Source of the DNA: Oscillospiraceae bacterium
Lineage (GTDB): Bacteria; Bacillota; Clostridia; Oscillospirales; JAAYXM01
Length of the DNA stretch: 64,000 nucleotides
Assembly (NCBI GenBank): GCA_015068085.1
Contig: SVLF01000004.1
Coordinates: forward strand, 12,821 to 76,820
Direction of reading: 5' to 3'
The position numbers and the translations under genes were made by a program. Of this stretch, positions 51,572 to 64,000 are shown piece by piece. Numbering within the stretch: position 1 is the first letter of the stretch; each line of letters opens with the position of its first letter. The notes beneath the pieces were generated by a model that ran no database searches, was not told the origin of the DNA, and saw only the letters and a program-made list of their open reading frames with translations.

Positions 51572-53344
51572 ATGACAAGCGGAAAGATTATAAAGGTCTC
51601 CGGTCCGCTTATAGTAGCGGAGGGGCTTTCCCACGCGAATATGTTCGACGTTGTTCGCGTCGGACAGGATAAGCTTATCGGAGAAATTATCGAAATGCGC
51701 GGTGACCGCGCTTCAATTCAGGTTTATGAGGAAACGGCGGGAATCGGCTACGGTGACGAGGTTGTCACTACGGGTGCGCCGCTTTCCGTAGAGCTCGCAC
51801 CGGGACTTATCGAGAATATTTATGACGGTATTCAGCGTCCTCTTGAGAAAATCCGTGAGCTTTCGGGAAGCAACATAAAGCGCGGTATAGACGTTGCGAG
51901 CGTCGACCGTGATCGCGTGTGGGAATTTACAGCTACGCGCAAGGCAGGCGAGCGCGTGCAGGCGGGTGACATTATCGGTACGGTCAATGAGACTGTTATT
52001 GTAGAGCATCGCATTATGGTTCCGCACGGCGTTTCAGGCGAGATTACTGAGATAAACAGCGGGTCCTTTAAGGTTGAGGATACCGTTTGCAAAATAAAGA
52101 CAGACAGCGGAGAAATAAAAGAAGTTTCAATGCTTCAGAAGTGGCCGGTTCGCGTGGGGCGTCCATACAAAGAAAAAATGCCTCCGGATGTTCCGATGAT
52201 TACCGGTCAGCGCGTTATCGATACAATGTTCCCGATTGCAAAGGGCGGTGCTGCGGCAGTTCCCGGCCCGTTCGGAAGCGGAAAGACCGTTGTTCAGCAT
52301 CAGCTTGCAAAGTGGTCCGACGTTGATATAGTTGTATACATCGGCTGCGGCGAGCGCGGAAACGAAATGACGGATGTTCTGCGCGAATTTCCGGAGCTTT
52401 CTGACCCGAAGACGGGAGAGTCGCTTATGAAGCGCACCGTGCTTATTGCCAATACATCAGATATGCCTGTTGCGGCGCGTGAGGCGTCTATCTATACGGG
52501 TATAACGATCGCGGAATATTACAGAGATATGGGCTACGACGTTGCGGTTATCGCAGACTCCACCTCCCGCTGGGCAGAGGCTTTGCGTGAGATGTCCGGT
52601 CGTCTTGAAGAAATGCCGGGTGAGGAAGGCTATCCTGCATACCTTTCATCCCGTCTTGCGCAGTTCTATGAGCGTGCCGGCAGAATAGTTGCCGTATCCG
52701 GTGAGGAAAGACGCGGTTCCCTTACCGCAATCGGCGCGGTATCACCTCCGGGCGGTGACATCTCCGAGCCTGTTTCGCAGGCAACACTGCGAATTGTAAA
52801 GGTTTTCTGGGGGCTTGATTCTTCCCTTGCATACCGTCGCCACTTCCCGGCAATTAACTGGCTTAATTCATATTCGCTCTATCTCGATCGTCTTGGCGCG
52901 TGGTTTGATGAAAACGTATCGCGCGAGTTTATGAAAAACAGAAGCCGTGCAATGGGACTTCTGCAGCTTGAGGCAGAGCTTCAGGAAATTGTCCGCCTTG
53001 TCGGTATTGATGCACTTTCGGCAGAGGACCGCCTGACTCTTGAGGTTGCGCAGATTGTCCGTGAGGACTTCCTCCAGCAGAATGCATTCTCCGACACAGA
53101 CAGCTACACTCCGCTTGCAAAGCAGGCGCACCTTATGCAGCTTGTTCTAAAGTATCACGATCTCGGTAAAAAGGCTATCTCTGCAGGGGCAGACCCGAAT
53201 AAGGTGTTTGCAATGCAGGCACGTGAAAAGCTCGGACGTGCAAAGGATGCTCCGAACGACACATACAATAAGGTTTATGATGAAATAGAAGCTCTCATGG
53301 AAAGTGAAGCAGAGAGCCTTATCTCGGCAAAGGAGGAAGAGTAA
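51572..53344 (+). CDS. ntpA: V-type ATPase catalytic subunit A
   Basis: ATG at 51572 ([18 protein letters not shown]). Walker [10 protein letters not shown]. ~590 aa. Confidence 0.95.
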
Positions 53345-54723
53345 TGCTTAAGGAATATCGTACTATCCAAGAGGTTACAGGTCCTCTTATGCTTGTAAAG
53401 GATGTAACGGGCGTTGCATATGACGAGCTCGGCGAGGTTGAGCTTCCGAACGGTGAGCGCCGCCGTTGCAAGGTTCTTGAGGTCAATGGCTCGGACGTTT
53501 TGGTTCAGCTTTTTGAAAGCAGTGCGGGAATTAACCTTGCCGCAAGCTCCGTGCGTTTTCTCGGTCACGGAATAGAGCTTGGTGTTTCCGAGGATATGCT
53601 CGGCCGCGTTTTTGACGGAATGGGCAGACCGCGTGACGGCGGTCCGGAAATTCTTCCGGAGGAGCGCCGCAATATAAACGGTACCCCGATGAATCCCGCA
53701 TCGCGCAACTACCCGGATGAGTTTATCCAGACCGGTATTTCGACAATCGACGGTCTTAACACCCTTGTCCGCGGTCAGAAGCTTCCTATCTTCTCAGGCT
53801 CCGGTCTTCCGCACGCACAGCTTGCCGCACAGATTGCGCGTCAGGCAAAGGTTTTGCGTGCTGATGCAAAGTTTGCCGTTGTGTTTGCCGCTATCGGTAT
53901 CACATTTGAGGAAGCAGATTTCTTTATCTCGGACTTTAAGCGCACAGGTGCAATTGACCGCACGGTGCTCTTTGTAAACCTCGCAAACGACCCTGCGATT
54001 GAGCGTATTTCCACCCCGCGTATGGCACTTACGGCGGCAGAATATCTTGCATTTGAGAAGGATATGCACGTACTCGTCATTATGACGGATATCACGAACT
54101 ACGCCGAGGCTCTTCGTGAGGTTTCGGCGGCGCGTAAGGAGGTTCCGGGACGCCGCGGATATCCGGGTTATCTCTACACCGACCTTGCAACGATGTATGA
54201 GCGTGCGGGCAGAAACCTCGACAGTGAGGGATCCATAACGATGATTCCGATTCTTTCAATGCCCGAGGATGACAAGACACATCCTATCCCCGACCTTACG
54301 GGATATATCACTGAGGGGCAGATTATCCTCTCGCGTGAGCTTTATCGAAAGAATGTTCTGCCTCCGGTAGACGTTCTTCCGTCGCTTTCACGTCTCAAGG
54401 ACAAGGGAATCGGTGACGGAAAAACGCGTGAGGACCACGCCGGAACGATGAACCAGCTCTTTGCGGCGTATGCACGCGGAAAAGAAGCGAAGGAGCTTAT
54501 GACAATTCTCGGTGAAGCGGCGCTTTCTGATATTGATAAGCTGTACGCCAAGTTCTCCGAGCAGTTTGAGCTTCGCTATGTAAGCCAGGGCTATGACGAG
54601 AACCGCTCGATTGAGGAGACATTGAATCTCGGCTGGGAGCTGCTTTCCATTCTTCCTAAGTCAGAGCTTAAGCGTATAAAGCCTGAGCTTATTGAAAAAT
54701 ATCTGCCGGAAAATAAGGCTTAA
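53344..54723 (+). CDS. ntpB: V-type ATPase subunit B
   Basis: 459 aa, typical B-subunit sequence (..[26 protein letters not shown]..). TAATG overlap with subunit A. Confidence 0.95.
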
Positions 54724-54735
54724 GGAGTTTTTCCT

Positions 54736-55383
54736 ATGGCAACAATGAATGTTAACCCGACGCGTATGGAGTTAAAGCGGCTTAAAAACCGTCTTACCAC
54801 AGCGCGCCGAGGTCATAAGCTTTTAAAAGATAAGCGGGACGAGCTGATGAAGCGCTTTCTTGACATTATCCGCGAGAACAAAGAGCTTCGCGCTGAGGTG
54901 GAGCGCGAAATCTCCGAGGCGAACCGTGGCTTTGCCGTTGCAGGTGCCGTGATGTCTCCCGAGATGATGGAGCAGTCGCTTATGTGTCCGACAAAGTCCG
55001 TAGAGCTTGACATATCATACAAAAATATAATGAGCGTTGATGTTCCCGAGTTTTCGTTTTCGGCAAGTGACGGGAAATCCGTATATCCTTACGGCTATGC
55101 AATGACCTCCGGTGAGCTTGACGATGCGGTGGACGGTCTTGCACGTCTTTTACCTAAGCTTCTGCGCCTTGCCGAGGTAGAAAAATCTGCCCAGCTTCTT
55201 GCACAGGAGATTGAAAAAACGCGCAGACGCGTAAATGCGCTTGAGTATGTTATGATACCGCAGCTTGCGGAAACGATACGCATGATAACGATGAAGCTTG
55301 ACGAAAATGAGCGTGGAAACCTTACCCGCCTTATGAAGGTCAAGGATATGATGATAAAAGAACAATTACAAAAGAACAAGTAA
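54736..55383 (+). CDS. ntpD: V-type ATPase subunit D
   Basis: 215 aa, MNVNPTRMELKRLKNRLTTARRGHKLLKDKRDEL is the canonical D-subunit N-terminus. Confidence 0.92.
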   Translation: MATMNVNPTRMELKRLKNRLTTARRGHKLLKDKRDELMKRFLDIIRENKELRAEVEREISEANRGFAVAGAVMSPEMMEQSLMCPTKSVELDISYKNIMSVDVPEFSFSASDGKSVYPYGYAMTSGELDDAVDGLARLLPKLLRLAEVEKSAQLLAQEIEKTRRRVNALEYVMIPQLAETIRMITMKLDENERGNLTRLMKVKDMMIKEQLQKNK

Positions 55384-55390
55384 AAAAGCA

Positions 55391-55428
55391 GGGACGTACC
55401 TGAAGAAAATGACTTTCAGGTACGTCCT
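55391..55428. terminator. Shared terminator hairpin between the V-ATPase operon and the convergent zinc-ribbon gene
   Basis: 13-bp stem ggacgtacctgaa / ttcaggtacgtcc. A-run on the 5' side gives a U-run for the minus-strand transcript. Confidence 0.7.
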
Positions 55429-55433
55429 GTATC

Positions 55434-55847
55434 TTATGTCTTTTTAATTATTTTACTTCTGCATTTGGGGCAGGTTATTTCAATTTTGCCCTTGCCGCGC
55501 GGCACGCGCATAACCGTCCTGCAAAGCTTACAGCGGTAGTAGCGGTGGTTTTTGTCTTTCATTTTGCTTTTCCAGAAAGCTAATTTATCGCGCACGCGGG
55601 ATCGGATTCTCCAATATTTTGCAAGCTCACTCTGCCGCTTTGCAAAGTTTTTTGAAAATATACGAACGTATGACCAGATAAAGATAGCAAGTGCCGGGAT
55701 ACTTAACCAGAAAAACAGGCGGAACAAAGAAAGAAAAGCCAGCACCATGCCTGTTATGAGCAAAAATGAGCCGAACTCGTCAACTCCGTAGCGTCCGTAC
55801 ATAAAACGCTGAACAGTGTTATTGAATCTTTGAAAAAAACCGCGCAT
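55434..55847 (-). CDS. Small membrane protein with a C-terminal Cys4 zinc ribbon
   Basis: Two hydrophobic segments, then CKLCRTVMRVPRGKGKIEITCPKCRSK. Confidence 0.65.
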   Translation of the reverse strand: MRGFFQRFNNTVQRFMYGRYGVDEFGSFLLITGMVLAFLSLFRLFFWLSIPALAIFIWSYVRIFSKNFAKRQSELAKYWRIRSRVRDKLAFWKSKMKDKNHRYYRCKLCRTVMRVPRGKGKIEITCPKCRSKIIKKT

Positions 55848-55981
55848 AAGAATTCCTCCGGATATATAGTGATTACATTTTACTACAATTATTCCCCGCT
55901 TTCAAGGTGATTAGATATGATGTTACAGATTGTTTAAAAAGAAAGGGACTTGAGATTTCTCTCAAGTCCTTCTTGATGCCG

Positions 55982-56058
55982 TGGCGCGCTGCGGAGAATT
56001 CGAATCCCCGACCTTCTGGTCCGTAGCCAGACGCTCTATCCAGCTGAGCTAGCAGCGC
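55982..56058 (-). tRNA. tRNA-Arg (anticodon ACG), CCA encoded
   Basis: Reverse complement: acceptor GCGCTGC/GCAGCGC; D-arm GCTC-AGCTGGATA-GAGC; anticodon stem TCTGG/CCAGA with loop CTACGGA; T-arm GGGGA-TTCGAAT-TCTCC; then G plus CCA. 77 nt. Confidence 0.93.
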
Positions 56059-56287
56059 ATATCTTTCCAAACAGCTTAACTATAATAACACATCGCGAGG
56101 AAAAAATCAAGTCTTTTTTTCAAATTTTCCAAATTTTTTTGTGAAAGTAAATTTGCGGACGATCATATTCTGAAAAATATTGAAAAACATATGTGATTGA
56201 AGTATAATGATTGTAGGGTTCGGCGGTTGCCGACGAACCGGAAATGTGACAGAAAAAACGGTTATGGCAATAAGGAGGAGTAAGAAA

Positions 56288-57466
56288 ATGCAATACCGCA
56301 AGGATAAATACGAAAATGACATATCGGCTTTGGCTTTTGGCTGTATGCGATTTAAAAAGAAAATGGGCAAGTTTGATTTTGCTGAGGCAGAGCGTGAAAT
56401 TCTGGCGGCGTACAGAATGGGCGTGAACTATTTTGATACGGCGTATATCTATCCCGGAAACGAAGTCTTAGTCGGAGAGATTTTTGAGAAAAACAATCTC
56501 CGTGAAAAAATAAATATTGCGACGAAGCTTCCGCATTATCTTATCAAAACCCGCGAGGATCTTGACCGCTTGTTTAATGAGCAACTTTCACGTCTCCGCA
56601 CGGACTATATTGATTATTATCTTATGCATATGCTTACGGACACCGCCACATGGGAACGCCTTTGCGGACTTGGTATAAAGGAGTGGATTGCAGAGAAAAA
56701 GGCGAGCGGAAAAATCCGTCAGATAGGTTTTTCATACCACGGCAATTCAGAGATGTTCTGCTCTCTTGTTGATGTGTATGACTGGGATTTCTGTATGATT
56801 CAATATAATTATATGGATGAGCACACCCAGGCGGGACGCACCGGGCTTTTGCACGCAAACAAAAAAGGACTTCCCGTTATGATTATGGAGCCGCTGCGCG
56901 GAGGAAAGCTTGTGAACCGTCTGCCGGAGGAGGCAATGCGTATTTTCAGGGAGCATACACCAAAATACACTCCGGCCGAGTGGTCTTTCCGCTGGCTGTG
57001 GAATCAGCCCGAGGTAACAACGGTTCTCTCGGGGATGAACTCAATGGAAATGCTGGAGGAAAATTGCCGCGTGGCGGACTCGGCGCGCATCGGAGAGCTT
57101 ACGGCTGCGGATGAAGAGATGCTGGCAGGCGTGGTAAAGGCGATAAACGCAGGGATGAAGGTGCCGTGCACCGGATGCCGCTACTGTGTGCCGTGTCCGA
57201 AGGGCGTGGATATCCCGGGCGTGTTTGCGGCATACAACAGAGTGTATTCTGACAGCAAGTTTGCCGGAATGAGAGATTATTTTATGTGTACCGCAATGAG
57301 AAAAAACTCCACAGCCGCGTCAAACTGCATTGGCTGTGGGAAATGCGAACAGCATTGTCCGCAGAATATTGATATAAGAGGAAAGCTTCGCGATGCCGGA
57401 AAAGAATTGGAAAATCCGCTGTACAGAGCATTCCGGAAAATTGCGTCATGGGTGATAAGGTTTTAA
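56288..57466 (+). CDS. Aldo/keto reductase with a C-terminal 4Fe-4S ferredoxin-type domain
   Basis: ATG at 56288 after AGGAGG. AKR N-terminus (..ALAFGCMRF..VNYFDTAYIY..). Cys clusters CTGCRYCVPCPKG and CIGCGKCEQHCPQ. Confidence 0.8.
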   Translation: MQYRKDKYENDISALAFGCMRFKKKMGKFDFAEAEREILAAYRMGVNYFDTAYIYPGNEVLVGEIFEKNNLREKINIATKLPHYLIKTREDLDRLFNEQLSRLRTDYIDYYLMHMLTDTATWERLCGLGIKEWIAEKKASGKIRQIGFSYHGNSEMFCSLVDVYDWDFCMIQYNYMDEHTQAGRTGLLHANKKGLPVMIMEPLRGGKLVNRLPEEAMRIFREHTPKYTPAEWSFRWLWNQPEVTTVLSGMNSMEMLEENCRVADSARIGELTAADEEMLAGVVKAINAGMKVPCTGCRYCVPCPKGVDIPGVFAAYNRVYSDSKFAGMRDYFMCTAMRKNSTAASNCIGCGKCEQHCPQNIDIRGKLRDAGKELENPLYRAFRKIASWVIRF

Positions 57467-58386
57467 TTCTTTTTATAATTAAGCAAAAGTATTCCCGTGC
57501 AGATTAAAACGAGTGTGATTACGAGGTTTATCGGTGAAACGTTGCTCTGCTCGGAGAGAAGAAGCGAGGACAGAAGTACTCCGAAAACGGGGATCATAAA
57601 GCTGAAAACCGTCACCTTCGAAACGGAGTTGAACTTCAAGAGCACGCCCCAGAGGGAATATGCAATTGCCGAAAGAAATGCGAGATAAATAAGCACACCG
57701 ATTGCCGCGCCACCGCTAAGCTCAATCACACCGCCGAATAAAAGTCCGCCGATCGCCATGAGAAGTCCGCCGATGGCAAACTGATACCCGCTGATGATAA
57801 CCGGGTCCTCATCCTTGGAATAAATTTTGATAAGCGTGGAGGACATTCCGTAGCACACGGTGGAGAAGAATACAAACCCGTCACCGAAGAAGTTCATATT
57901 AAAATCAAGACCGTTCATATTGATAAGGATAATCCCTGCAAAGCCAACGATGCAGGCGATTATTTTTTTTGCCGTAAGCTTTTCCTGACGGAAGAGAAGG
58001 CTTGCGATGAGGATTGAACAGAAAACGTTGCATCCGCTGATTACCGTACCCTTAACACCGGAGGTATTGGCGAGACCGATGTAGAAGAATATGTACTGCA
58101 GAATGGTCTGGAATGCGCTGACGGTCAGCACCTTATTCCAATTGCGTTTTTGTGGGAGAAGGAACTTCTTGCGTGCAATGCTGTAAATGAGAATTGTGAG
58201 AATACCGGCAAGGAAGAAGCGGACGCCGGCAAAGAGAATGGTTGACGGGACATTGCGCACGGGGAGGATAAGCTCATATCCTATTTTGATAAACGGAGTG
58301 GCACTGCCCCAGAGCGCACAGCACAGAAGTGCCGCGAAGGTGACGAAATACGGATTGGTGAATAGTTTGTTTGTTTTGCTTTGCAA
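57463..58386 (-). CDS. DMT-superfamily (EamA-like) transporter
   Basis: 307 aa, ~10 TM segments, duplicated EamA-like halves. Its stop overlaps the convergent AKR stop by 4 nt. Confidence 0.75.
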   Translation of the reverse strand: MQSKTNKLFTNPYFVTFAALLCCALWGSATPFIKIGYELILPVRNVPSTILFAGVRFFLAGILTILIYSIARKKFLLPQKRNWNKVLTVSAFQTILQYIFFYIGLANTSGVKGTVISGCNVFCSILIASLLFRQEKLTAKKIIACIVGFAGIILINMNGLDFNMNFFGDGFVFFSTVCYGMSSTLIKIYSKDEDPVIISGYQFAIGGLLMAIGGLLFGGVIELSGGAAIGVLIYLAFLSAIAYSLWGVLLKFNSVSKVTVFSFMIPVFGVLLSSLLLSEQSNVSPINLVITLVLICTGILLLNYKKN

Positions 58387-58577
58387 TTTAAGGACCTCTT
58401 TTCATTATGTTCCCATGTATTGTACCGCAAATCGCCCGAAAAATCAAGTGCTATTGCCGCATCATTTCCTGTTTGTTTCGAATAATCAAAATGGGTCTAT
58501 AAATTTTTTGCGAAAAACAGTTGCATTATGACATAAAGTGTGTTATTATATATATAATTGAATATTGCCCGATGAAA

Positions 58578-58690
58578 CTTTCAGAATCGGAAGAGACTGA
58601 AAGCGGAGGGGGCTCCGGAGAATCTCTTAAATGAGTGCCGAAGGTGTAAGGCAGAGAATTCTGCTGAATCTCTCAGGCAAAAGAACGGAG
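58578..58690 (+). promoter_or_regulatory. Glycine riboswitch (single aptamer 58613-58690 preceded by a 7-bp hairpin 58578-58603)
   Basis: CTCCGGAGAAtctctt..GAGTGCCGAAGGTGTAAGg..AATCTCTCAGGCAAAAGAACGGAG matches the conserved glycine-aptamer blocks (GGAGA.., ..gCCGAAGG.G.AA.., ..CUCUCAGGCAAAAG.AC.G) with P1 ctccg/cggag. Lies upstream of an AGCS (alanine/glycine:cation symporter) gene, a known association. Confidence 0.65.
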
Positions 58691-58718
58691 AAAACACATA
58701 CGAATCCCACATCCTTGT

Positions 58719-58788
58719 ATGCGTTTTTCGGAGTTGCTGCATTATTGCGGCATTTTTTATTGTGCCGGAAAACGCATTTTCTGTTTTT
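58719..58788 (+). terminator. Riboswitch expression-platform terminator
   Basis: atgcgtttttcgg (58719-58731) pairs with ccggaaaacgcat (58765-58777), followed by TTTCTGTTTTT. The aptamer 3' tail gagaaaacacat could pair alternatively with the 5' arm. Confidence 0.5.
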
Positions 58789-58822
58789 CGGTCCAAAATA
58801 TAATTTTCAGGAGGAACAAATC

Positions 58823-60232
58823 ATGCAGGCATTTCTTGACTCACTCTTGGCAATGGTCCAGAAGGCAAACGGCTTTCTTGCGGACTACATTCTCATCATT
58901 CTGCTCGTGGGAGCAGGTCTCTTCTTTACGGTCAAAACTCGTTTCGTGCAGGTTCGCTGCTTTGGCGAAGGTATGGAAAAGGTTTTCGGCAACATCAAGC
59001 TTTTCGGCAACAAAGACGGCAGTGGCCTCACCTCGTTCCAGGCACTTGCAACGGCAATTGCGGCACAGGTAGGAACAGGTAACATCGTCGGTGCATCGGG
59101 TGCGATACTCGTCGGAGGTCCCGGTGCTATCTTCTGGATGTGGATTATCGCATTTTTGGGTATGGCTACCATTTATGCAGAAGCGGTTCTTGCTCAGGAA
59201 ACCCGTGTTTCTGATGCAAACGGTGAAATTCACGGCGGTCCGGTTTACTACATAAAGAAAGCGTTTCCCAACGGCTTCGGCACATTTCTTGCGGTTTTCT
59301 TTGCGGTAGCAATCACGGTTGCTCTCGGCTTCTTTGGCTCAATGGTACAGTCAAACTCCATCGCAGAGTCATGCTACACAGCATTCCGTATTGACGGATG
59401 GATTATCGGTATCATAGTTGCCGCAGTATCTGCGTTTATTTTCATCGGCGGAGTAAAGAGACTCGCATCCGTTACGGAAAAGCTTGTTCCGATAATGGCT
59501 TGTCTCTTCCTTCTCGGAGGTCTCGTAGTGCTTGTTGCGCGCATTAAGTATATTCCTGAAACCTTTGGCGCGATATTCAAGTATGCGTTTACGCCTGATG
59601 CGCTCATCGGCGGCGGAATCGGTTATGCTCTCAAAACGGCAATCAGCCAGGGCGCAAAGCGCGGTCTTTTCTCGAACGAGGCAGGTATGGGTTCAACTCC
59701 GCATGCACACGCAATGGCAGATGTCGAGAAACCGCATGACCAGGGCTGTGTTGCAATGGTGGGTGTATTTATCGATACATTTGTTGTTCTTACAATGACT
59801 GCTCTTGTTGTTATATCAACCCTCTATGTAGGAGAGGGCGGGCTTCTTGCAAGCGGAGATTACGTTGCGGCAATTGAAGCCCAGGGTATTATGAAAACGA
59901 ATGCAATGCAGATGGCTGTCGGCAGTGTGTTCGGAACAAGCTTCGGTAATATGTTTATTGCGATATGCCTTCTCTTCTTTGCGTATTCAACTATTATCGG
60001 CTGGAACTTTTTCGGAAAAATCAACGTTCAGTATCTCACAAAGAACAGCAAGACGGCGGTTGTAATTTATTCCGTTATTGCAATAGTATTCATTTTTCTC
60101 GGCACGCTTCTCTCAAATGATCTCGTGTGGGAGCTTACGGATTTCTTCAACTACCTTATGGTTATCCCGAACGTAATTGCACTTATTGCGCTTTGGAAGG
60201 TTGTTGCAGCATCTGCGCGTGGAAAGAAATAA
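58823..60232 (+). CDS. Alanine/glycine:cation symporter (AGCS, sodium:alanine symporter family)
   Basis: ATG at 58823 after AGGAGGA (the listed start 58631 would run through the riboswitch). GGPGAIFWMW and ..GLFSNEAGMGS.. family motifs. Confidence 0.88.
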   Translation: MQAFLDSLLAMVQKANGFLADYILIILLVGAGLFFTVKTRFVQVRCFGEGMEKVFGNIKLFGNKDGSGLTSFQALATAIAAQVGTGNIVGASGAILVGGPGAIFWMWIIAFLGMATIYAEAVLAQETRVSDANGEIHGGPVYYIKKAFPNGFGTFLAVFFAVAITVALGFFGSMVQSNSIAESCYTAFRIDGWIIGIIVAAVSAFIFIGGVKRLASVTEKLVPIMACLFLLGGLVVLVARIKYIPETFGAIFKYAFTPDALIGGGIGYALKTAISQGAKRGLFSNEAGMGSTPHAHAMADVEKPHDQGCVAMVGVFIDTFVVLTMTALVVISTLYVGEGGLLASGDYVAAIEAQGIMKTNAMQMAVGSVFGTSFGNMFIAICLLFFAYSTIIGWNFFGKINVQYLTKNSKTAVVIYSVIAIVFIFLGTLLSNDLVWELTDFFNYLMVIPNVIALIALWKVVAASARGKK

Positions 60233-60245
60233 CAGCATTAAAAAA

Positions 60246-60283
60246 TCCGGACACCGGGTTTCGGCGTCCGGAGAAGTTTTTTT
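60246..60283 (+). terminator. Rho-independent terminator after the AGCS gene
   Basis: tccggacaccg / cggcgtccgga (one mismatch), followed by T7 at 60277-60283. Confidence 0.7.
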
Positions 60284-60294
60284 CAAGTAAAGTA

Positions 60295-60323
60295 TTGGCA
60301 AATTAAACATTTTATGGTATACT
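60295..60323 (+). promoter_or_regulatory. Sigma-A-type promoter for putP
   Basis: TTGGCA (60295-60300), 17 nt spacer, TATACT (60318-60323). Confidence 0.45.
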
Positions 60324-60356
60324 TATGCATATTAACTTTTAAAGGAGAATAGGAAA

Positions 60357-61814
60357 ATGACAGAAATTATTGTTTTTTCAATTTACCTTCTCTGTATGCT
60401 CGGAATAGGCGTGTATTTCTTCTTCCGTGACCGTAACGGCGGAGAAAAGAGCTTCTTCCTCGGCGGCAGACAGATGGGTCCGTGGGTTTCGGCACTTTCA
60501 GCCGGAGCTTCGGATATGAGCGCATGGGTGCTTATGGGACTTCCTACGGCAATTTATGCTGCAGGTCTCGGTCAGGTATGGGTTTCGGTAGGTCTCGCGG
60601 TTGGCTACACGATTTCATGGCTTGTTCAGGCACCTCGCCTTCGCAAGTTCTCAATCGTGGCGAATGACTCTATCACGATTCCTCAATACCTTACAAACCG
60701 CTTTCTTTCAAAATCACGTGCATTGCAGATTCTTTGTGCAATAGTTTTCCTTATTGCATATACGGTTTACTGTGCATCAAGCATCAAGGCGTGTGGAACA
60801 CTTTTCAATACAGTTTTAGGTATTGATGCGCAGGTCGCAATGTACATAGCTGCATTTATCATTATAGGATATACGTTCCTCGGCGGTTTCTCCGCAGTTT
60901 GCTGGACGGACTTTTTCCAGGGACTTCTCATTCTCGGCTCGATGTTTATAGCCCCGATTTTTGCGGCGTTCGTTCTTGATGCACCGACAATGGCAGGTAA
61001 TATGGCAACGCTTGAGCCGAATTTCTGGAACCCGATTGCAAGCTGGAAGGAAATAGTTTCCGGTCTTGCATGGGGTCTTGGTTACTTCGGTATGCCACAT
61101 ATCATAATTCGCTATATGTCGCTCCGCTCACAAAGGGAGCTTAAAAAGTCGGCGAAAATCGGCATCACATGGACTGCGCTCATAGTTCTCTTTGCTGCAA
61201 TTATCGGTATTGTTGGACGTCTTTTCCTCGGATATGATGAAACAATTAATGCAAATGAGCTTGTGTTCATTGAAATGGTGCGTAAGATATTCCCGCCGCT
61301 TCTTTCCGGTGTGCTTCTCTCGGCTATTCTTGCCGCATCTATGAGTACTGCGGACAGTCAGCTTCTTGCGGCTTCTTCTGCGTTTGCAAGTGATGTTTAC
61401 AAGCCGGTTATCCGCAAGAATAAAGCAAGTGATAAGGAGCTTCTTTGGGTTGGACGCTTTGTTGTTCTTGCTGTTGCGGTCATTGCACTTTTAATTGCGG
61501 CAAATCCGGCGTCTGCATCCATTATGGGGCTTGTTTCCAATGCGTGGGGTGTGTTCGGTGCCGCGTTCGGTCCGACGATTATGCTTTCCCTCTTCTGGAA
61601 ACGCTTTAATTTCAAGGGTGCTGTTGCAGGTATTCTCACCGGCGCGGTAGTTGACATTTGCTGGCTTGCGTTCCTTAGCAGCACGGGAATATATGAAATT
61701 CTTCCGGGAAGTGTTGCAAGCCTCATTGTTGCAGTTGCGGTTACACTTGTAACCAAGAAGCCGTCGGAAGAGGTTGAAAAGCTCTTTGACGATGCAGTGG
61801 CTTATGACGAATAA
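60357..61814 (+). CDS. putP: Sodium/proline symporter (SSS family)
   Basis: 485 aa. FFLGGRQMGPWVSALSAGASDMSAWVLMGLP is the PutP/SSS signature region. Confidence 0.85.
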   Translation: MTEIIVFSIYLLCMLGIGVYFFFRDRNGGEKSFFLGGRQMGPWVSALSAGASDMSAWVLMGLPTAIYAAGLGQVWVSVGLAVGYTISWLVQAPRLRKFSIVANDSITIPQYLTNRFLSKSRALQILCAIVFLIAYTVYCASSIKACGTLFNTVLGIDAQVAMYIAAFIIIGYTFLGGFSAVCWTDFFQGLLILGSMFIAPIFAAFVLDAPTMAGNMATLEPNFWNPIASWKEIVSGLAWGLGYFGMPHIIIRYMSLRSQRELKKSAKIGITWTALIVLFAAIIGIVGRLFLGYDETINANELVFIEMVRKIFPPLLSGVLLSAILAASMSTADSQLLAASSAFASDVYKPVIRKNKASDKELLWVGRFVVLAVAVIALLIAANPASASIMGLVSNAWGVFGAAFGPTIMLSLFWKRFNFKGAVAGILTGAVVDICWLAFLSSTGIYEILPGSVASLIVAVAVTLVTKKPSEEVEKLFDDAVAYDE

Positions 61815-61916
61815 AATATAAATAAACATGAAAAACACCCGCCGCATTAGGTGGGTAGTGATAAGGAAGTATTAAGAATATCACTATCTACCGACAAGCA
61901 GGGTGTAAAAGAGAGT

Positions 61917-61952
61917 CAAGCATGTCGCTTTTTACGGCGATATGCTTGTTTT
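61917..61952 (+). terminator. Probable putP terminator
   Basis: caagcatgtcgc / gcgatatgcttg (one mismatch), followed by TTTT. Confidence 0.4.
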
Positions 61953-62168
61953 CGTTAATATGGGGTAAAATGTAACGCAATAGAGGGTAAAAATCGCCCT
62001 ATTTCAGCGGTTTTTAAAGCCTGAAACTTATAAGGTAATGGTTTTATATTCAAAACCTCAAAAATGACTTCTATCGTTCCACAAAAATCTAGAAACGAAC
62101 ACTTTATGAAAAAAGGGATTTAAGTCCGTTTTTGGCTTAAATCCCCTTAACTGACATACTACAAAAAA

Positions 62169-62225
62169 AGACATGCAAGTCAAGGGCGAGCATGGCTCGT
62201 GCATTTACCCTTGACTTGCATGTCT
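62169..62225 (-). terminator. Strong terminator of the minus-strand GHKL/nuclease gene
   Basis: Perfect 18-bp stem agacatgcaagtcaaggg (62169-62186) / cccttgacttgcatgtct (62208-62225). The A7 run on the plus strand at 62163-62169 gives a U-run after the hairpin on the minus strand. Lies 16 nt downstream of the stop at 62241. Confidence 0.8.
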
Positions 62226-62240
62226 TTTGTGCGTTTAAAA

Positions 62241-64000
62241 TTAACTTATTTTTACTTCAGGTGGCATTGCGGAAGAAAGAGTTGCTTGTTCCTCCACGAT
62301 TTCATTTGCTGTTTTGTTTTTAGATTCTGCAAGTGCATTTTGCTGCAACTGTAATTTGTCAAGTAAAAAACTGTTGTTTATTTCAAACTCAGTTATTATA
62401 TCACTCCATCTTTTTACATATATTTTACATTTTTTAACTTTGAAAACAAGATACTTTTCTCCATAAGAAGAAGCGTTTTCATACTCATTTTCAATGTCTG
62501 TATTGATATTATTACCAACAAGATAAAATTCCCACTCAATATTATCCGCATTAAACCTGTCTTCTGATTGAATTGTTTTAAAATAAGTTTTTACTTGAGT
62601 TAATTCCTTATTTCCTAAAGTTACACTAGGTCTTTTGAGTTCTACAACAATGCACTTTTTTATATCTCCTTGCTTCGATTGCCGTACAGCAAAAATATCC
62701 ATCTCCTTATTTTTGTCAGGACTATCAATTTTGCTTTCCTCTTTTGTAAGTTTTTCGCCATTAAGAATATAACGAAAACGACGTAAGGCCTCTTCGAAAT
62801 CTGGCTCTTCTGCGGTAACAAGATGATATTGCTCACCGAAAATCCAATAATTGTTTTCGATAAATGGCTGTATGTGCTTTACCTCGGTTATACTCTCTGA
62901 TTTATCAAAAACTAAAGACTTTAATTGTTCAATAACTATAGCTCTATCTTTTAATAGGTTAATTGTTTTAGTGATATTGGACATTGTTGTATATTCTAGT
63001 ATTTCAGACAATCCTTTTCTTTCATCATCACTCATATCAACAATATCGCCTATTATATCAAACAAACTATCAAGTTCGTTAGATTGTAGTATTAAGTCAA
63101 ACAATCTTACCAATGTTTTTTGTTGAGTAATGTTCAGTTTTGAAAAAATTTTAGGTTCAGCATAGTAAATATTAGAAATCATTGCATCCAATGCATCTTT
63201 TCTATAGGCATCAAATGGTGTATCTTGATATTTGGGATAGGCGCCATTTTTCTTTAATTCAATTAAGTATGTTTTTGTGTACTCTTTGATAAATGGATTC
63301 CTTTTTTCTCGCAACAACTTGTCAACTTCGTGTTTTATAAACCTATACTCTACGGAATCCTTGGTTTTTCCAAAAAGAACTTCTTGGCCTTCGGGATTTT
63401 CAAAAGAAAAGTCATCAAATAACGAACTTTTTATATATACACTGTGGAAAAATTTATCACCTTTATTATTTAATGTTGTGTTTTCTTTGAATTTTTCAAT
63501 TCCATCCGCATTTATATAATAATACTTGGAAAATTCTTTATTTAACTTTCTTTTCCAACGGCAAAAAGTAACATCATATGATATATTCTCATAAGTATAT
63601 TTATGTTCAGAGCGTTCCTCAATCACCTCGGTATTATCTATATCTTTATTGTCAATATACAACTTACATCCTTGCTGTCTTTTAAGCTCAATGTACCAAG
63701 AAAATTCGGTCTGAATATAATCATTCAATTCATCAACGGAAAATTTTTCGTCAACATTATTCAGAGTAACTGTCGTACCTGTTTCTGCAGAAGTTTCTTG
63801 TTTTTCCGAATGAGAAAATTCTTCTAAAGTACTTGCGTTAATAGTTATATTGTAAGTATATTTTATGTTGTCTTTTTCATATGTTGTTTCCCACTCAGCC
63901 TCTTGTGCAAATGTGAAAAATGTTAGTCTTCCAACACCATTTTTACCATGATATGTAGAAATGGTGTTTTTATTTATTGTAATCGCTTTTTCCGATTCAA
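62241..64000 (-). CDS. GHKL-type ATPase fused to a Shedu-like (DUF4263-type) PD-(D/E)xK nuclease domain; 5' end lies outside the window
   Basis: The listed ORF starts at a TTG (63728), but the frame stays open to nt 64000. Extra codons read ..AITINKNTISTYHGKNGVGRLTFFTFAQEAEW.. (G-rich ATP-lid-like, 63927-63950). C-terminal part: HIQPFIENNYWIFGEQY...EMDIFAVRQ..CIVVELKRP..LTQVKTYF (core ~62628-62702). Very AT-rich. Confidence 0.6.
   Translation of the reverse strand, partial: ESEKAITINKNTISTYHGKNGVGRLTFFTFAQEAEWETTYEKDNIKYTYNITINASTLEEFSHSEKQETSAETGTTVTLNNVDEKFSVDELNDYIQTEFSWYIELKRQQGCKLYIDNKDIDNTEVIEERSEHKYTYENISYDVTFCRWKRKLNKEFSKYYYINADGIEKFKENTTLNNKGDKFFHSVYIKSSLFDDFSFENPEGQEVLFGKTKDSVEYRFIKHEVDKLLREKRNPFIKEYTKTYLIELKKNGAYPKYQDTPFDAYRKDALDAMISNIYYAEPKIFSKLNITQQKTLVRLFDLILQSNELDSLFDIIGDIVDMSDDERKGLSEILEYTTMSNITKTINLLKDRAIVIEQLKSLVFDKSESITEVKHIQPFIENNYWIFGEQYHLVTAEEPDFEEALRRFRYILNGEKLTKEESKIDSPDKNKEMDIFAVRQSKQGDIKKCIVVELKRPSVTLGNKELTQVKTYFKTIQSEDRFNADNIEWEFYLVGNNINTDIENEYENASSYGEKYLVFKVKKCKIYVKRWSDIITEFEINNSFLLDKLQLQQNALAESKNKTANEIVEEQATLSSAMPPEVKIS

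What the first reader, a model, noticed from the sequence alone, without database searches (positions are those of the whole stretch)
62241..64000. GHKL-type ATPase fused to a Shedu-like PD-(D/E)xK nuclease in an AT-rich terminal segment: candidate single-gene defence system, cut by the window edge
The tabulated 495-aa ORF begins at a TTG, but the same frame stays open through nt 64000, so the gene is longer than listed. The extra ~90 codons read ...KNTISTYHGKNGVGRLTFFTFAQEAEW..., which resembles the glycine-rich ATP-lid segment of GHKL/MORC-type (HATPase_c_3-like) ATPases. The C-terminal third carries HIQPFIENNYWIFGEQY ... EMDIFAVRQ-x12-CIVVELKRP ... LTQVKTYF. That is an acidic residue followed about 20 aa later by E-x-K, in the context I associate with the DUF4263/Shedu (SduA) nuclease core. 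About 300 aa between the two have no motif I recognise. From ~61.85 kb the DNA is visibly far more AT-rich than the adjacent putP. It is separated from putP by ~400 nt of hairpin-rich non-coding DNA, as expected for acquired DNA. Shedu nucleases are known to carry variable N-terminal sensor domains. I do not know of a characterised GHKL-Shedu fusion.
Basis: partly seen in the sequence, partly recalled or inferred. Interest (0 to 1): 0.7.

Follow-up and report, generated by a model that had tools for sequence, protein, structure and literature searches.

The report
GHKL ATPase fused to restriction-type nuclease
The gene cut by the window edge encodes a 663-residue protein that joins a MutL/Hsp90-type ATPase to a restriction-enzyme-type nuclease; this protein architecture was first described in 2008 and one example was shown in 2025 to protect bacteria from phages, so the find is a sound but ordinary new member.

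Summary
The minus-strand frame ending at 62241 stays open to the window edge. Contigs 100% identical to the last 12 kb of the window complete the gene to 663 aa; 78 residues lie outside the window.

The protein has four parts:
- a GHKL ATPase with all four motifs intact;
- a MutL/Hsp90-like transducer domain;
- a helical region;
- a PD-(D/E)xK nuclease (E467, D512, E531-x-K533, Q546..Y550).

The DNA has 30% GC against 46% for the rest of the window. The gene sits on a mobilisable island as the last gene after a complete type II restriction-modification system.

The family is large (at least 783 clusters at 50% identity) and spread patchily across phyla, plasmids and two phages. It has no conserved partner gene.

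The architecture matches paraMORC3 (Iyer 2008). It also matches the GHKL class of "type I-D Shedu", of which VcSduA was validated in 2025.

The Shedu label itself is not confirmed:
- Pfam places the nuclease nearest HSDR_N_2.
- SduA_C gives only sub-threshold hits.
- Solved SduA ranks 26th in the fold search.

Verdict: new member of a known kind, most likely a standalone ATP-gated defence nuclease. Low to moderate interest.

The parts
62241..64000 (-). 3' 1758 nt of the gene plus the TAA stop (62241-62243). Encodes residues 79-663 of a 663-aa GHKL ATPase-nuclease protein. The start codon lies 232 nt beyond the window edge.
63753..63998 (-). C-terminal half of the GHKL (Bergerat) ATPase domain, residues 79-160. 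Contains the ATP-lid motif III G96-x-x-G99-x-G101 (63930-63947) and motif IV G152-T153 (63774-63779). Motifs I (E28, N32, D35) and II (D60-x-G-x-G64) lie outside the window.
   Evidence: Pfam HATPase_c_3 63.6 bits on the 98%-identical P0001; 52/53 and 70/70 members; conservation; coordinates
63363..63740 (-). Transducer (S5-fold-like) middle domain, residues ~165-290. W226 is invariant; K249, K257 and H263 are invariant among the 53 closest relatives.
   Evidence: The full-length model aligns over 320-410 columns with MutL LN40, TRAP1/Hsp90 and GyrB43, E ~1e-10. The MORC-specific S5 motif is absent in 0/70 members.
62907..63353 (-). All-helical region, residues 294-442 (five long helices). Probably a dimerisation or clamp arm.
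   Evidence: secondary structure of both models; the function is inferred
62313..62885 (-). PD-(D/E)xK nuclease domain, residues 450-640. Motif I E467 (62832-62834), motif II D512 (62697-62699), motif III E531 and K533 (62634-62642), motif IV Q546..Y550 (62583-62597).
   Evidence: Pfam HSDR_N_2 23.5 bits on the window fragment, 25.3 on P0001; 51/53 and 58/70 members. All fold-search hits are PD-(D/E)xK nucleases; NucS prob 0.99, rmsd 3.9. Conservation.
62166..62228 (-). Intrinsic terminator of the gene: perfect 21-bp stem, 21-nt loop region, then U7. It ends 13 nt after the stop codon.
61815..62240 (.). 426-nt spacer between the convergent putP and the nuclease gene. GC falls here. The junction between host and acquired DNA lies somewhere inside and could not be placed.

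Best explanation
The gene encodes a paraMORC3-type protein with four parts: a GHKL ATPase, a transducer domain, a helical arm and a PD-(D/E)xK nuclease. It most likely acts on its own as an ATP-gated nuclease that defends the cell, or the mobile element carrying it, against phages or plasmids.

Proposed mechanism, by analogy with MutL, GyrB, Hsp90 and MORC and with the validated VcSduA:
1. The protein is a dimer.
2. ATP binding closes the two N-terminal GHKL domains.
3. The middle and helical domains then form a clamp around DNA.
4. This conformational cycle licenses the C-terminal nuclease to cut foreign DNA.
5. The host survives, i.e. the defence is not abortive infection.

Shown here: domain composition, intact catalytic motifs, acquired and mobile context, lack of a conserved partner gene, patchy cross-phylum distribution.

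Inferred: the defence function, dimerisation, ATP gating, the DNA target and the trigger.
For: Architecture:
- HATPase_c_3 at E 2.6e-17 in the 98%-identical full-length protein.
- GHKL motifs I-IV invariant or >=90% conserved and present in the completed window protein.
- The full model matches MutL LN40, TRAP1 and GyrB across both the ATPase and transducer domains.
- E467-D512-E531xK533-Q546 are conserved, and the fold search returns only PD-(D/E)xK nucleases.

Acquired and mobile context:
- 30% GC against 46% for the rest of the window.
- NikA-like and TnpW genes lie beyond the cluster.
- None of 80 putP loci in other species carries the gene.
- Homologues occur on 43 plasmids and in 2 phages.

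Standalone gene:
- No neighbour family occurs in more than 9 of 80 loci.
- The closest relatives sit beside different systems: an unnamed type II R-M at 98% identity, NgoPII R-M at 89%, MamI R-M plus an integrase at 83%. More distant ones sit in type I R-M operons or beside Drt2.
- R-M homologues occur in 12/80 family loci against 1/80 controls. Recombinases occur in 15/80 against 1/80.

Literature:
- paraMORC3 is defined as GHKL + S5 + RE-fold domain with E-D-ExK, often standalone and laterally mobile (PMC2292703).
- GHKL + middle domain + nuclease is listed as type 1D Shedu (10.1101/2023.08.10.552793).
- VcSduA alone protects E. coli and V. cholerae. It needs E27 (ATPase) and K557 (nuclease), is non-abortive and is modelled as a dimer (PMC12137116).
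Against: - No functional test exists for this protein or for any close relative.
- No direct comparison with VcSduA or with a named paraMORC3 was possible, because no sequence was obtainable. The Glu-to-Lys spacing is 530 residues in VcSduA against 503-511 in this family, so they may be different lineages with the same architecture.
- PADLOC, NCBIfam and the Pfam Shedu model do not recognise the protein.
- In this genome and in L089 the gene follows an R-M system within 7-48 nt on the same strand, so co-operation with that system cannot be excluded.
- All 22-23 contigs of this population carry the island, so no empty site was seen.
Confidence: 0.72

Rival explanations
1. The protein is not autonomous. 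It is an accessory or second nuclease of the adjoining restriction-modification system, as Iyer et al. proposed for most MORC/paraMORC proteins. In that view the methyltransferase protects host DNA from it, or it processes DNA already cut by the restriction enzyme.
For: - It is the last gene of a tight co-directional cluster: C-protein, fused C5+N6 methyltransferase (PADLOC 6e-274), type II REase (1e-132), a 168-aa ORF, then this gene. Gaps are 10-48 nt.
- In L089 it starts 7 nt after an NgoPII-system methylase gene.
- Bacteroidota relatives sit between hsdR and hsdS.
- R-M homologues are enriched 12/80 against 1/80.
- Gu et al. count 602 of 5,499 Shedu genes inside R-M systems.
Against: - The partner R-M differs in type and family between relatives only 83-98% identical.
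- Most loci show no R-M near the gene.
- Iyer et al. single out the nuclease-bearing paraMORC3 as standalone.
- VcSduA works alone in E. coli.
Confidence: 0.13
2. It is a bona fide Shedu (SduA) protein: its nuclease is a divergent DUF4263 domain and it works as Shedu does, through a nuclease-domain tetramer released from autoinhibition by the N-terminal sensor.
For: - Sub-threshold SduA hits recur in several members. Pfam SduA_C hits 5/53, best E 0.0054. PADLOC SduA gives E 3e-4 to 0.013 in 3 of 10 proteins. The hits are registered on the segment just before and including motif I.
- The motif I to motif II spacing is 45 residues both here (E467..D512) and in B. cereus SduA (E204..D249).
- Both resemble NucS/EndoMS.
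- The literature files this architecture under type I-D Shedu.
Against: - No member reaches the Pfam cut-off, and SduA_C is not among the 25 most-matched families of 70 divergent members.
- HSDR_N_2 scores better throughout.
- The nuclease-domain profile finds no PDB sequence even at E <= 10.
- SduA 8ps5 is rank 26, E 0.23, rmsd 15.5.
- The motif III to IV spacing differs: 13 residues here against 29.
- A tetramer model was not supported even for VcSduA.
Confidence: 0.35
3. It is a housekeeping DNA-repair or recombination factor. Some database records name relatives "DNA mismatch repair protein".
For: The N-terminal 300 residues resemble MutL LN40 in sequence (Mlh1 E 1e-4) and in fold.
Against: - No MutL C-terminal domain is present.
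- The gene is absent from 80 putP loci of related species.
- GC is far below the host's.
- It lies on a mobile island, and relatives occur on plasmids and phages.
- It is found in only a small fraction of species: 495 stretches among 185,579 species genomes.
Confidence: 0.03

Closest known systems
paraMORC3 family of prokaryotic GHKL ATPases (Iyer, Abhiman & Aravind 2008, PMC2292703)
   Same: - N-terminal GHKL domain with all ATP motifs.
- S5/transducer domain lacking the MORC-specific motif.
- Extra conserved C-terminal restriction-endonuclease-fold domain with E-D-ExK (and QxxxY).
- Patchy cross-phylum distribution.
- Often standalone, sometimes inside R-M loci.
   Different: - No named paraMORC3 sequence was available, so identity of the family rests on the published definition, not on an alignment.
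- The 2008 survey found the family mainly in Proteobacteria and Bacteroidetes. This member comes from a Clostridia-type gut or rumen bacterium.
VcSduA of Vibrio cholerae WASA lineage, the GHKL class of type I-D Shedu (Adams et al. 2025, PMC12137116; Gu et al. 2025)
   Same: - Single polypeptide: GHKL ATPase, clamp-like middle domain, C-terminal PD-(D/E)xK nuclease.
- The catalytic Glu of motif I is at nearly the same position (27 against 28).
- Located on a genomic island beside restriction systems.
- Not recognised by PADLOC or DefenseFinder.
   Different: - VcSduA is reported to carry DUF4263; this family does not reach that model's threshold.
- The Glu-to-Lys distance is about 20-25 residues longer in VcSduA.
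- Homology was not tested directly.
- No phage assay exists for this protein.
Canonical Shedu SduA (B. cereus; E. coli, PDB 8ps5)
   Same: - Single-gene nuclease defence.
- PD-(D/E)xK motifs I-IV.
- A 45-residue motif I-II spacing.
- NucS/EndoMS-like core.
- Frequent location inside R-M loci and mobile elements.
   Different: - Different N-terminal sensor: whirly/NRF folds rather than an ATPase.
- Tetramer/octamer regulation rather than an ATP cycle.
- The Pfam and PADLOC Shedu models are not met.
- Weak structural match.
MutL / MORC / GyrB-type GHKL clamps
   Same: ATPase plus transducer fold; an ATP-driven N-terminal dimerisation cycle coupled to a nuclease is the family theme.
   Different: No MutL C-terminal domain, no MORC S5 motif, no TOPRIM. 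The nuclease here is of the restriction-endonuclease fold and is fused in cis.

Membership tests
GHKL (Bergerat-fold) ATPase superfamily, Pfam HATPase_c_3 | Profile match above the curated cut-off (25 bits) | tested here: met
   63.6 bits, E 2.6e-17 on P0001, which is 98% identical. 52/53 and 70/70 family members match. The window fragment alone, which lacks residues 1-78, gives no hit.
GHKL (Bergerat-fold) ATPase superfamily, Pfam HATPase_c_3 | Motifs I (ExxxNxxD), II (DxGxG), III (GxxGxG ATP lid) and IV (GT) intact | tested here: met
   E28/N32/D35, D60-G62-G64, G96-G99-G101 and G152-T153 are conserved at >=90%. All are present in the completed protein.
GHKL (Bergerat-fold) ATPase superfamily, Pfam HATPase_c_3 | ATP binding and hydrolysis | not testable with these tools
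   needs biochemistry
paraMORC3 (Iyer 2008) | GHKL domain followed by an S5-fold (transducer) domain | tested here: met
   The model aligns with MutL LN40 over 322 of 328 residues, and with TRAP1 and GyrB43, at E ~1e-10.
paraMORC3 (Iyer 2008) | Lacks the MORC-specific GhXhhpXXRhl motif | tested here: met
   The motif is absent from the window protein and from 0/70 members.
paraMORC3 (Iyer 2008) | Additional conserved C-terminal RE-fold domain with E-D-ExK | tested here: met
   E467, D512 and E531-x-K533 are conserved (K533 invariant). All fold-search hits are PD-(D/E)xK nucleases.
paraMORC3 (Iyer 2008) | Wide but sporadic distribution; standalone without conserved neighbours | tested here: met
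   Firmicutes, Bacteroidota, Cyanobacteria, Chloroflexota, Acidobacteriota, Pseudomonadota and an archaeon. No neighbour family occurs in more than 9/80 loci.
paraMORC3 (Iyer 2008) | Sequence homology to a named paraMORC3 member | not tested
Shedu (SduA, DUF4263 / Pfam PF14082 SduA_C) | PF14082 match above the curated cut-off (27 bits) | tested here: not met
   No hit for the window protein or P0001. Hits in 5/53 members, best E 0.0054, about 15 bits. Not among the 25 most-matched families of 70 divergent members, and absent from 4 proteobacterial and phage relatives. PF14082 never appears in the precomputed Pfam column of about 330 listed relatives.
Shedu (SduA, DUF4263 / Pfam PF14082 SduA_C) | PADLOC SduA model match | tested here: not met
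   None for the window protein. E 3e-4 to 0.013 in 3 of 10 relatives.
Shedu (SduA, DUF4263 / Pfam PF14082 SduA_C) | Structural similarity of the nuclease domain to solved SduA above other PD-(D/E)xK nucleases | tested here: inconclusive
   8ps5_A is rank 26, E 0.23, TM 0.26. EcoO109I, MspJI, NucS and Cap4 rank higher, and no hit has E <= 0.001. The model's mean pLDDT is 78.5.
Shedu (SduA, DUF4263 / Pfam PF14082 SduA_C) | Homology to VcSduA, the validated GHKL-Shedu | not tested
   Supplementary Table 7 of PMC12137116 is truncated in the held copy. V. cholerae was absent from three homologue lists.
Shedu (SduA, DUF4263 / Pfam PF14082 SduA_C) | Anti-phage activity dependent on nuclease residues | not testable with these tools
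   needs experiments
Type I restriction enzyme HsdR (source of Pfam HSDR_N_2) | PD-(D/E)xK N-terminal nuclease joined to an SF2 helicase motor | tested here: not met
   HSDR_N_2 matches at about the cut-off (23.5-25.3 bits). No ResIII/helicase domain is present, and the nuclease is C-terminal.
MutL mismatch-repair protein | C-terminal MutL dimerisation/endonuclease domain; core-genome gene | tested here: not met
   Only the N-terminal ATPase resembles MutL. There is no MutL_C hit. The gene is island-borne.

The most novel reading that the evidence does not exclude
This large family (at least 783 clusters at 50% identity) may not be a Shedu at all. It could be a separate lineage: a GHKL-clamp nuclease whose restriction-type domain is nearer to HsdR-N/NucS than to DUF4263. 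Such a lineage would be missed by current defence-finding tools. It may have been repeatedly recruited to the 3' end of unrelated R-M operons, where it would act as an ATP-dependent second line that co-operates with restriction.
Probability: 0.25. Interest if true: 0.45.

Novelty: new member of a known kind. Interest (0 to 1): 0.25.

Why it matters
The case shows that a widespread single-gene candidate defence nuclease still escapes PADLOC, NCBIfam and the Pfam Shedu model. The family is present in hundreds of species across phyla, on plasmids and in phages.

Only one protein of this architecture, from Vibrio, has been tested. A Firmicutes member that sits directly behind a complete type II R-M system would be a convenient second test case. 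It could answer two questions:
- how an ATP-driven GHKL clamp gates a nuclease;
- whether such proteins work alone or together with restriction systems.

It does not open a new category.

Tried and rejected
Linking the nuclease domain to Shedu by sequence or structure:
- A profile of the whole family against PDB sequences gave only weak GHKL hits (MutL/Mlh1) and no nuclease.
- A profile of the nuclease domain alone against PDB gave nothing even at E <= 10.
- The fold search with the 369-residue C-terminal model gave no hit below E 0.001.
- I had no canonical Shedu alignment, so no profile-profile comparison could be run.

Obtaining the VcSduA sequence:
- The supplementary table is truncated.
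- The supplements of the two Shedu papers are not held.
- Two further homologue searches seeded with proteobacterial and Vibrio members listed several Vibrio species but not V. cholerae.

Looking for an empty site:
- An exact 26-mer scan of metagenome contigs found nothing.
- All contigs sharing the identical putP or V-ATPase D protein carry the island.

Other checks:
- Rfam found nothing credible in the spacer.
- MutL, HsdR and histidine-kinase readings were rejected for lack of their defining second domains.
Full report
**Observation**

The ORF table lists a 495-aa minus-strand ORF at 62241..63728 starting at TTG.

An exact look-up of the window's putP protein returned 22 contigs. L174, L175 and L176 are 100% identical to window 52001-64000 and continue past the edge. 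In them the gene is 663 aa. It begins METNKIQLQSQGIKK... at an ATG 7 nt downstream of GGAGA, which is 232 nt beyond the window. The window therefore holds residues 79-663.

The gene has 30.3% GC. Window 1-61814 has 45.9%, and no 1760-nt stretch elsewhere in the window falls below 38%.

The spacer to the convergent putP is 426 nt. It contains several hairpins. The most striking is a perfect 21-bp stem at 62166-62186/62208-62228. It folds at -40.9 kcal/mol (z -7.3) and is followed by U7 on the gene's strand, so it is the gene's terminator. Rfam finds nothing credible there.

**What the protein is**

The word-indexed search found 1068 relatives. Nearly all are 650-690 aa, and the closest (P0001) is 98% identical.

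- ATPase. On full-length members Pfam gives HATPase_c_3 at residues 21-135 (63.6 bits, E 2.6e-17). It matches in 52/53 and 70/70 members. The four GHKL motifs are at least 90% conserved and intact in the completed window protein: E28/N32/D35, D60xGxG64, G96xxGxG101 and G152-T153.
- Transducer domain. An AlphaFold model (mean pLDDT 78.9) matches TRAP1/Hsp90, MutL LN40 and GyrB43 at E about 1e-10. The alignments span 320-410 columns, covering both the ATPase and the transducer (S5-fold) domain, roughly residues 165-290. The MORC-specific S5 motif is absent from all 70 members checked.
- Helical region. Residues 294-442 are long helices.
- Nuclease. Residues 450-640 carry E467, D512, E531-x-K533 and Q546..Y550. 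K533 and Y550 are invariant in 115 sequences that fall to 21% identity. Pfam's best nuclease match is HSDR_N_2: 23.5 bits on the window fragment, 25.3 on P0001, matching 51/53 and 58/70 members. A model of the C-terminal 369 residues (pLDDT 78.5) hits only PD-(D/E)xK nucleases: EcoO109I, MspJI, NucS (prob 0.99, rmsd 3.9), AspBHI, Cap4, FokI and McrC. None has E below 0.001.

**Is the nuclease a Shedu (DUF4263) domain?**

Evidence against:
- Pfam SduA_C gives no hit for the window protein. It gives sub-threshold hits (best E 0.0054) in 5/53 close members. It is not among the 25 most-matched families of 70 divergent members, and it is absent from four proteobacterial and phage relatives.
- PADLOC's SduA models give E 3e-4 to 0.013 in three of ten relatives and nothing for this protein. 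NCBIfam gives nothing.
- Profiles of the whole family and of the nuclease domain find no Shedu chain in PDB.
- E. coli SduA (8ps5) is rank 26 in the fold search (E 0.23).

Evidence in favour:
- The weak SduA hits all register on the segment leading into motif I.
- The motif I to II spacing (45 residues) equals that of B. cereus SduA (E204, D249).
- Both proteins resemble NucS/EndoMS.

I score Shedu membership as not met by the curated models and otherwise unresolved.

**Context**

Beyond the window edge, the identical contigs show a tight co-directional cluster:
1. an HTH_26 controller (72 aa);
2. a fused C5+N6 DNA methyltransferase (862 aa; PADLOC MTase_II 6e-274);
3. a type II restriction enzyme (407 aa; PADLOC REase_II 1e-132);
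4. an unassigned 168-aa ORF;
5. this gene.

NikA-like and TnpW genes of a mobilisable element follow. The whole cluster has 30-37% GC.

The next relatives sit beside different systems:
- L089 (89% identity): NgoPII REase plus a C5 methylase, with only 7 nt between the methylase and this gene.
- L002 (83%): MamI REase, an N6 methylase and a phage integrase.
- L008: serine recombinase fragments.
- L003-L007: AAA_14/DUF4143 genes.
- Five Bacteroidota loci: between hsdR and hsdS of type I systems.
- A Psychrobacter plasmid: next to Drt2 and a LlaMI R-M.

Across 80 species genomes no neighbour family recurs in more than 9 loci. Homologues of a small set of R-M and recombinase proteins occur in 12 and 15 of the 80 loci, against 1 and 1 in 80 control putP loci.

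None of those 80 putP loci of other species carries the gene. In this population, however, every contig does, so no empty site was seen.

Relatives occur in many phyla, on 43 plasmids and in two Pasteurella phages. An exhaustive profile search counts 783 clusters at 50% identity with E <= 1e-30.

**Comparison with what is known**

- Iyer, Abhiman and Aravind (2008) defined paraMORC3 as a GHKL + S5 protein with an extra C-terminal RE-fold domain bearing E-D-ExK. They described it as sporadically distributed and laterally mobile, with the nuclease-bearing members typically standalone. Every one of those features was tested here and met.
- Gu et al. list GHKL (HATPase_c_3) plus an Hsp90/MORC-like middle domain among type 1D Shedu. 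They note 602 of 5,499 Shedu genes inside R-M systems.
- Adams et al. (2025) showed that VcSduA, a GHKL-nuclease protein of this architecture on a V. cholerae island, protects on its own. It needs E27 and K557, is not abortive, and models as a dimer rather than a tetramer. PADLOC and DefenseFinder had not flagged it.

I could not obtain VcSduA's sequence. Its Glu-to-Lys spacing (530) is 20-25 residues longer than in this family. Common descent of the whole protein is therefore likely but unproven.

**Mechanism and verdict**

The best-supported reading (confidence about 0.7) is a standalone, ATP-gated defence nuclease. ATP-driven dimerisation of the GHKL domains, as in MutL, GyrB and MORC, would close a clamp formed by the transducer and helical regions on DNA. 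That would license the C-terminal PD-(D/E)xK site to cut invading DNA. Domain composition, intact motifs and context are shown. Defence, gating, target and trigger are inferred.

The main rival is functional coupling to the adjacent R-M system (about 0.13). A housekeeping repair role is very unlikely.

The find is a new member of a known kind. The only mildly novel possibility is that this large family is a lineage distinct from DUF4263 Shedu that current defence finders miss and that is habitually attached to R-M operons.

Noticed in passing
beyond the window edge; L173 14443-18496 (minus strand), 100% identical overlap with the window: A complete type II R-M system lies immediately upstream on the same strand. 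It consists of an HTH_26 controller protein, a fused C5 + Eco57I-type N6 methyltransferase (862 aa) and a 407-aa restriction enzyme (PADLOC REase_II 1e-132) that has no Pfam or PDB match.
   Followed up: partly
L173 13924-14430 (minus strand): A 168-aa ORF lies between the restriction enzyme and the GHKL-nuclease gene. It has no Pfam, PADLOC or PDB match. It is present in L001 too but not in other relatives, and its role is unknown.
   Followed up: partly
L173 18845-21127: NikA-like and TnpW-like genes and a cut 511-aa ORF follow the cluster. This suggests the island is an integrative mobilisable element. Its far border and attachment site were not reached.
   Followed up: no
window 62166-62228: A perfect 21-bp inverted repeat (-40.9 kcal/mol) with an A7 run before it and a T-rich stretch after it on the + strand. 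It could terminate transcription from both directions between the convergent putP and the nuclease gene.
   Followed up: yes
window 61917-61948 and 62112-62148: Two further hairpins lie in the spacer. One is terminator-like on the + strand, 100 nt after putP. They were not examined beyond the scans.
   Followed up: no
L142, L143, L144, L147, L152 (Bacteroidota and Ignavibacteria): Here the homologue sits inside type I R-M operons, in the order hsdR, GHKL-nuclease, hsdS, a Schlafen AlbA_2/HATPase_c_4 gene, hsdM.
   Followed up: partly
L003-L007, 8707-12809: The homologue is flanked by a 407-aa AAA_14/DUF4143 gene upstream and a 125-164-aa DUF4143 fragment downstream. It looks as if it was inserted into or next to a duplicated gene. 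The arrangement is identical in gut metagenomes from several cohorts.
   Followed up: no
L172 (Pasteurella phage Pmp14) 4932-6890; also phage Pmp3: A 24%-identical full-length homologue is carried by two Pasteurella phages. It lies between tail genes, a moron-like position.
   Followed up: no
L171 (Psychrobacter plasmid pP62BP1): The homologue lies next to an antiviral reverse transcriptase Drt2 and a dcm/LlaMI R-M pair, forming a small plasmid-borne defence island.
   Followed up: no
window 58631-60232: The Na+/alanine symporter ORF is called with two different starts in identical contigs (533 or 469 aa). The longer form adds an N-terminal extension that may not be real.
   Followed up: no
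tool coverage: An exact 26-mer present in JGI contigs L173, L175 and L176 was not found by the metagenome-contig scan. That collection therefore does not cover those records, and a negative scan there says little.
   Followed up: yes
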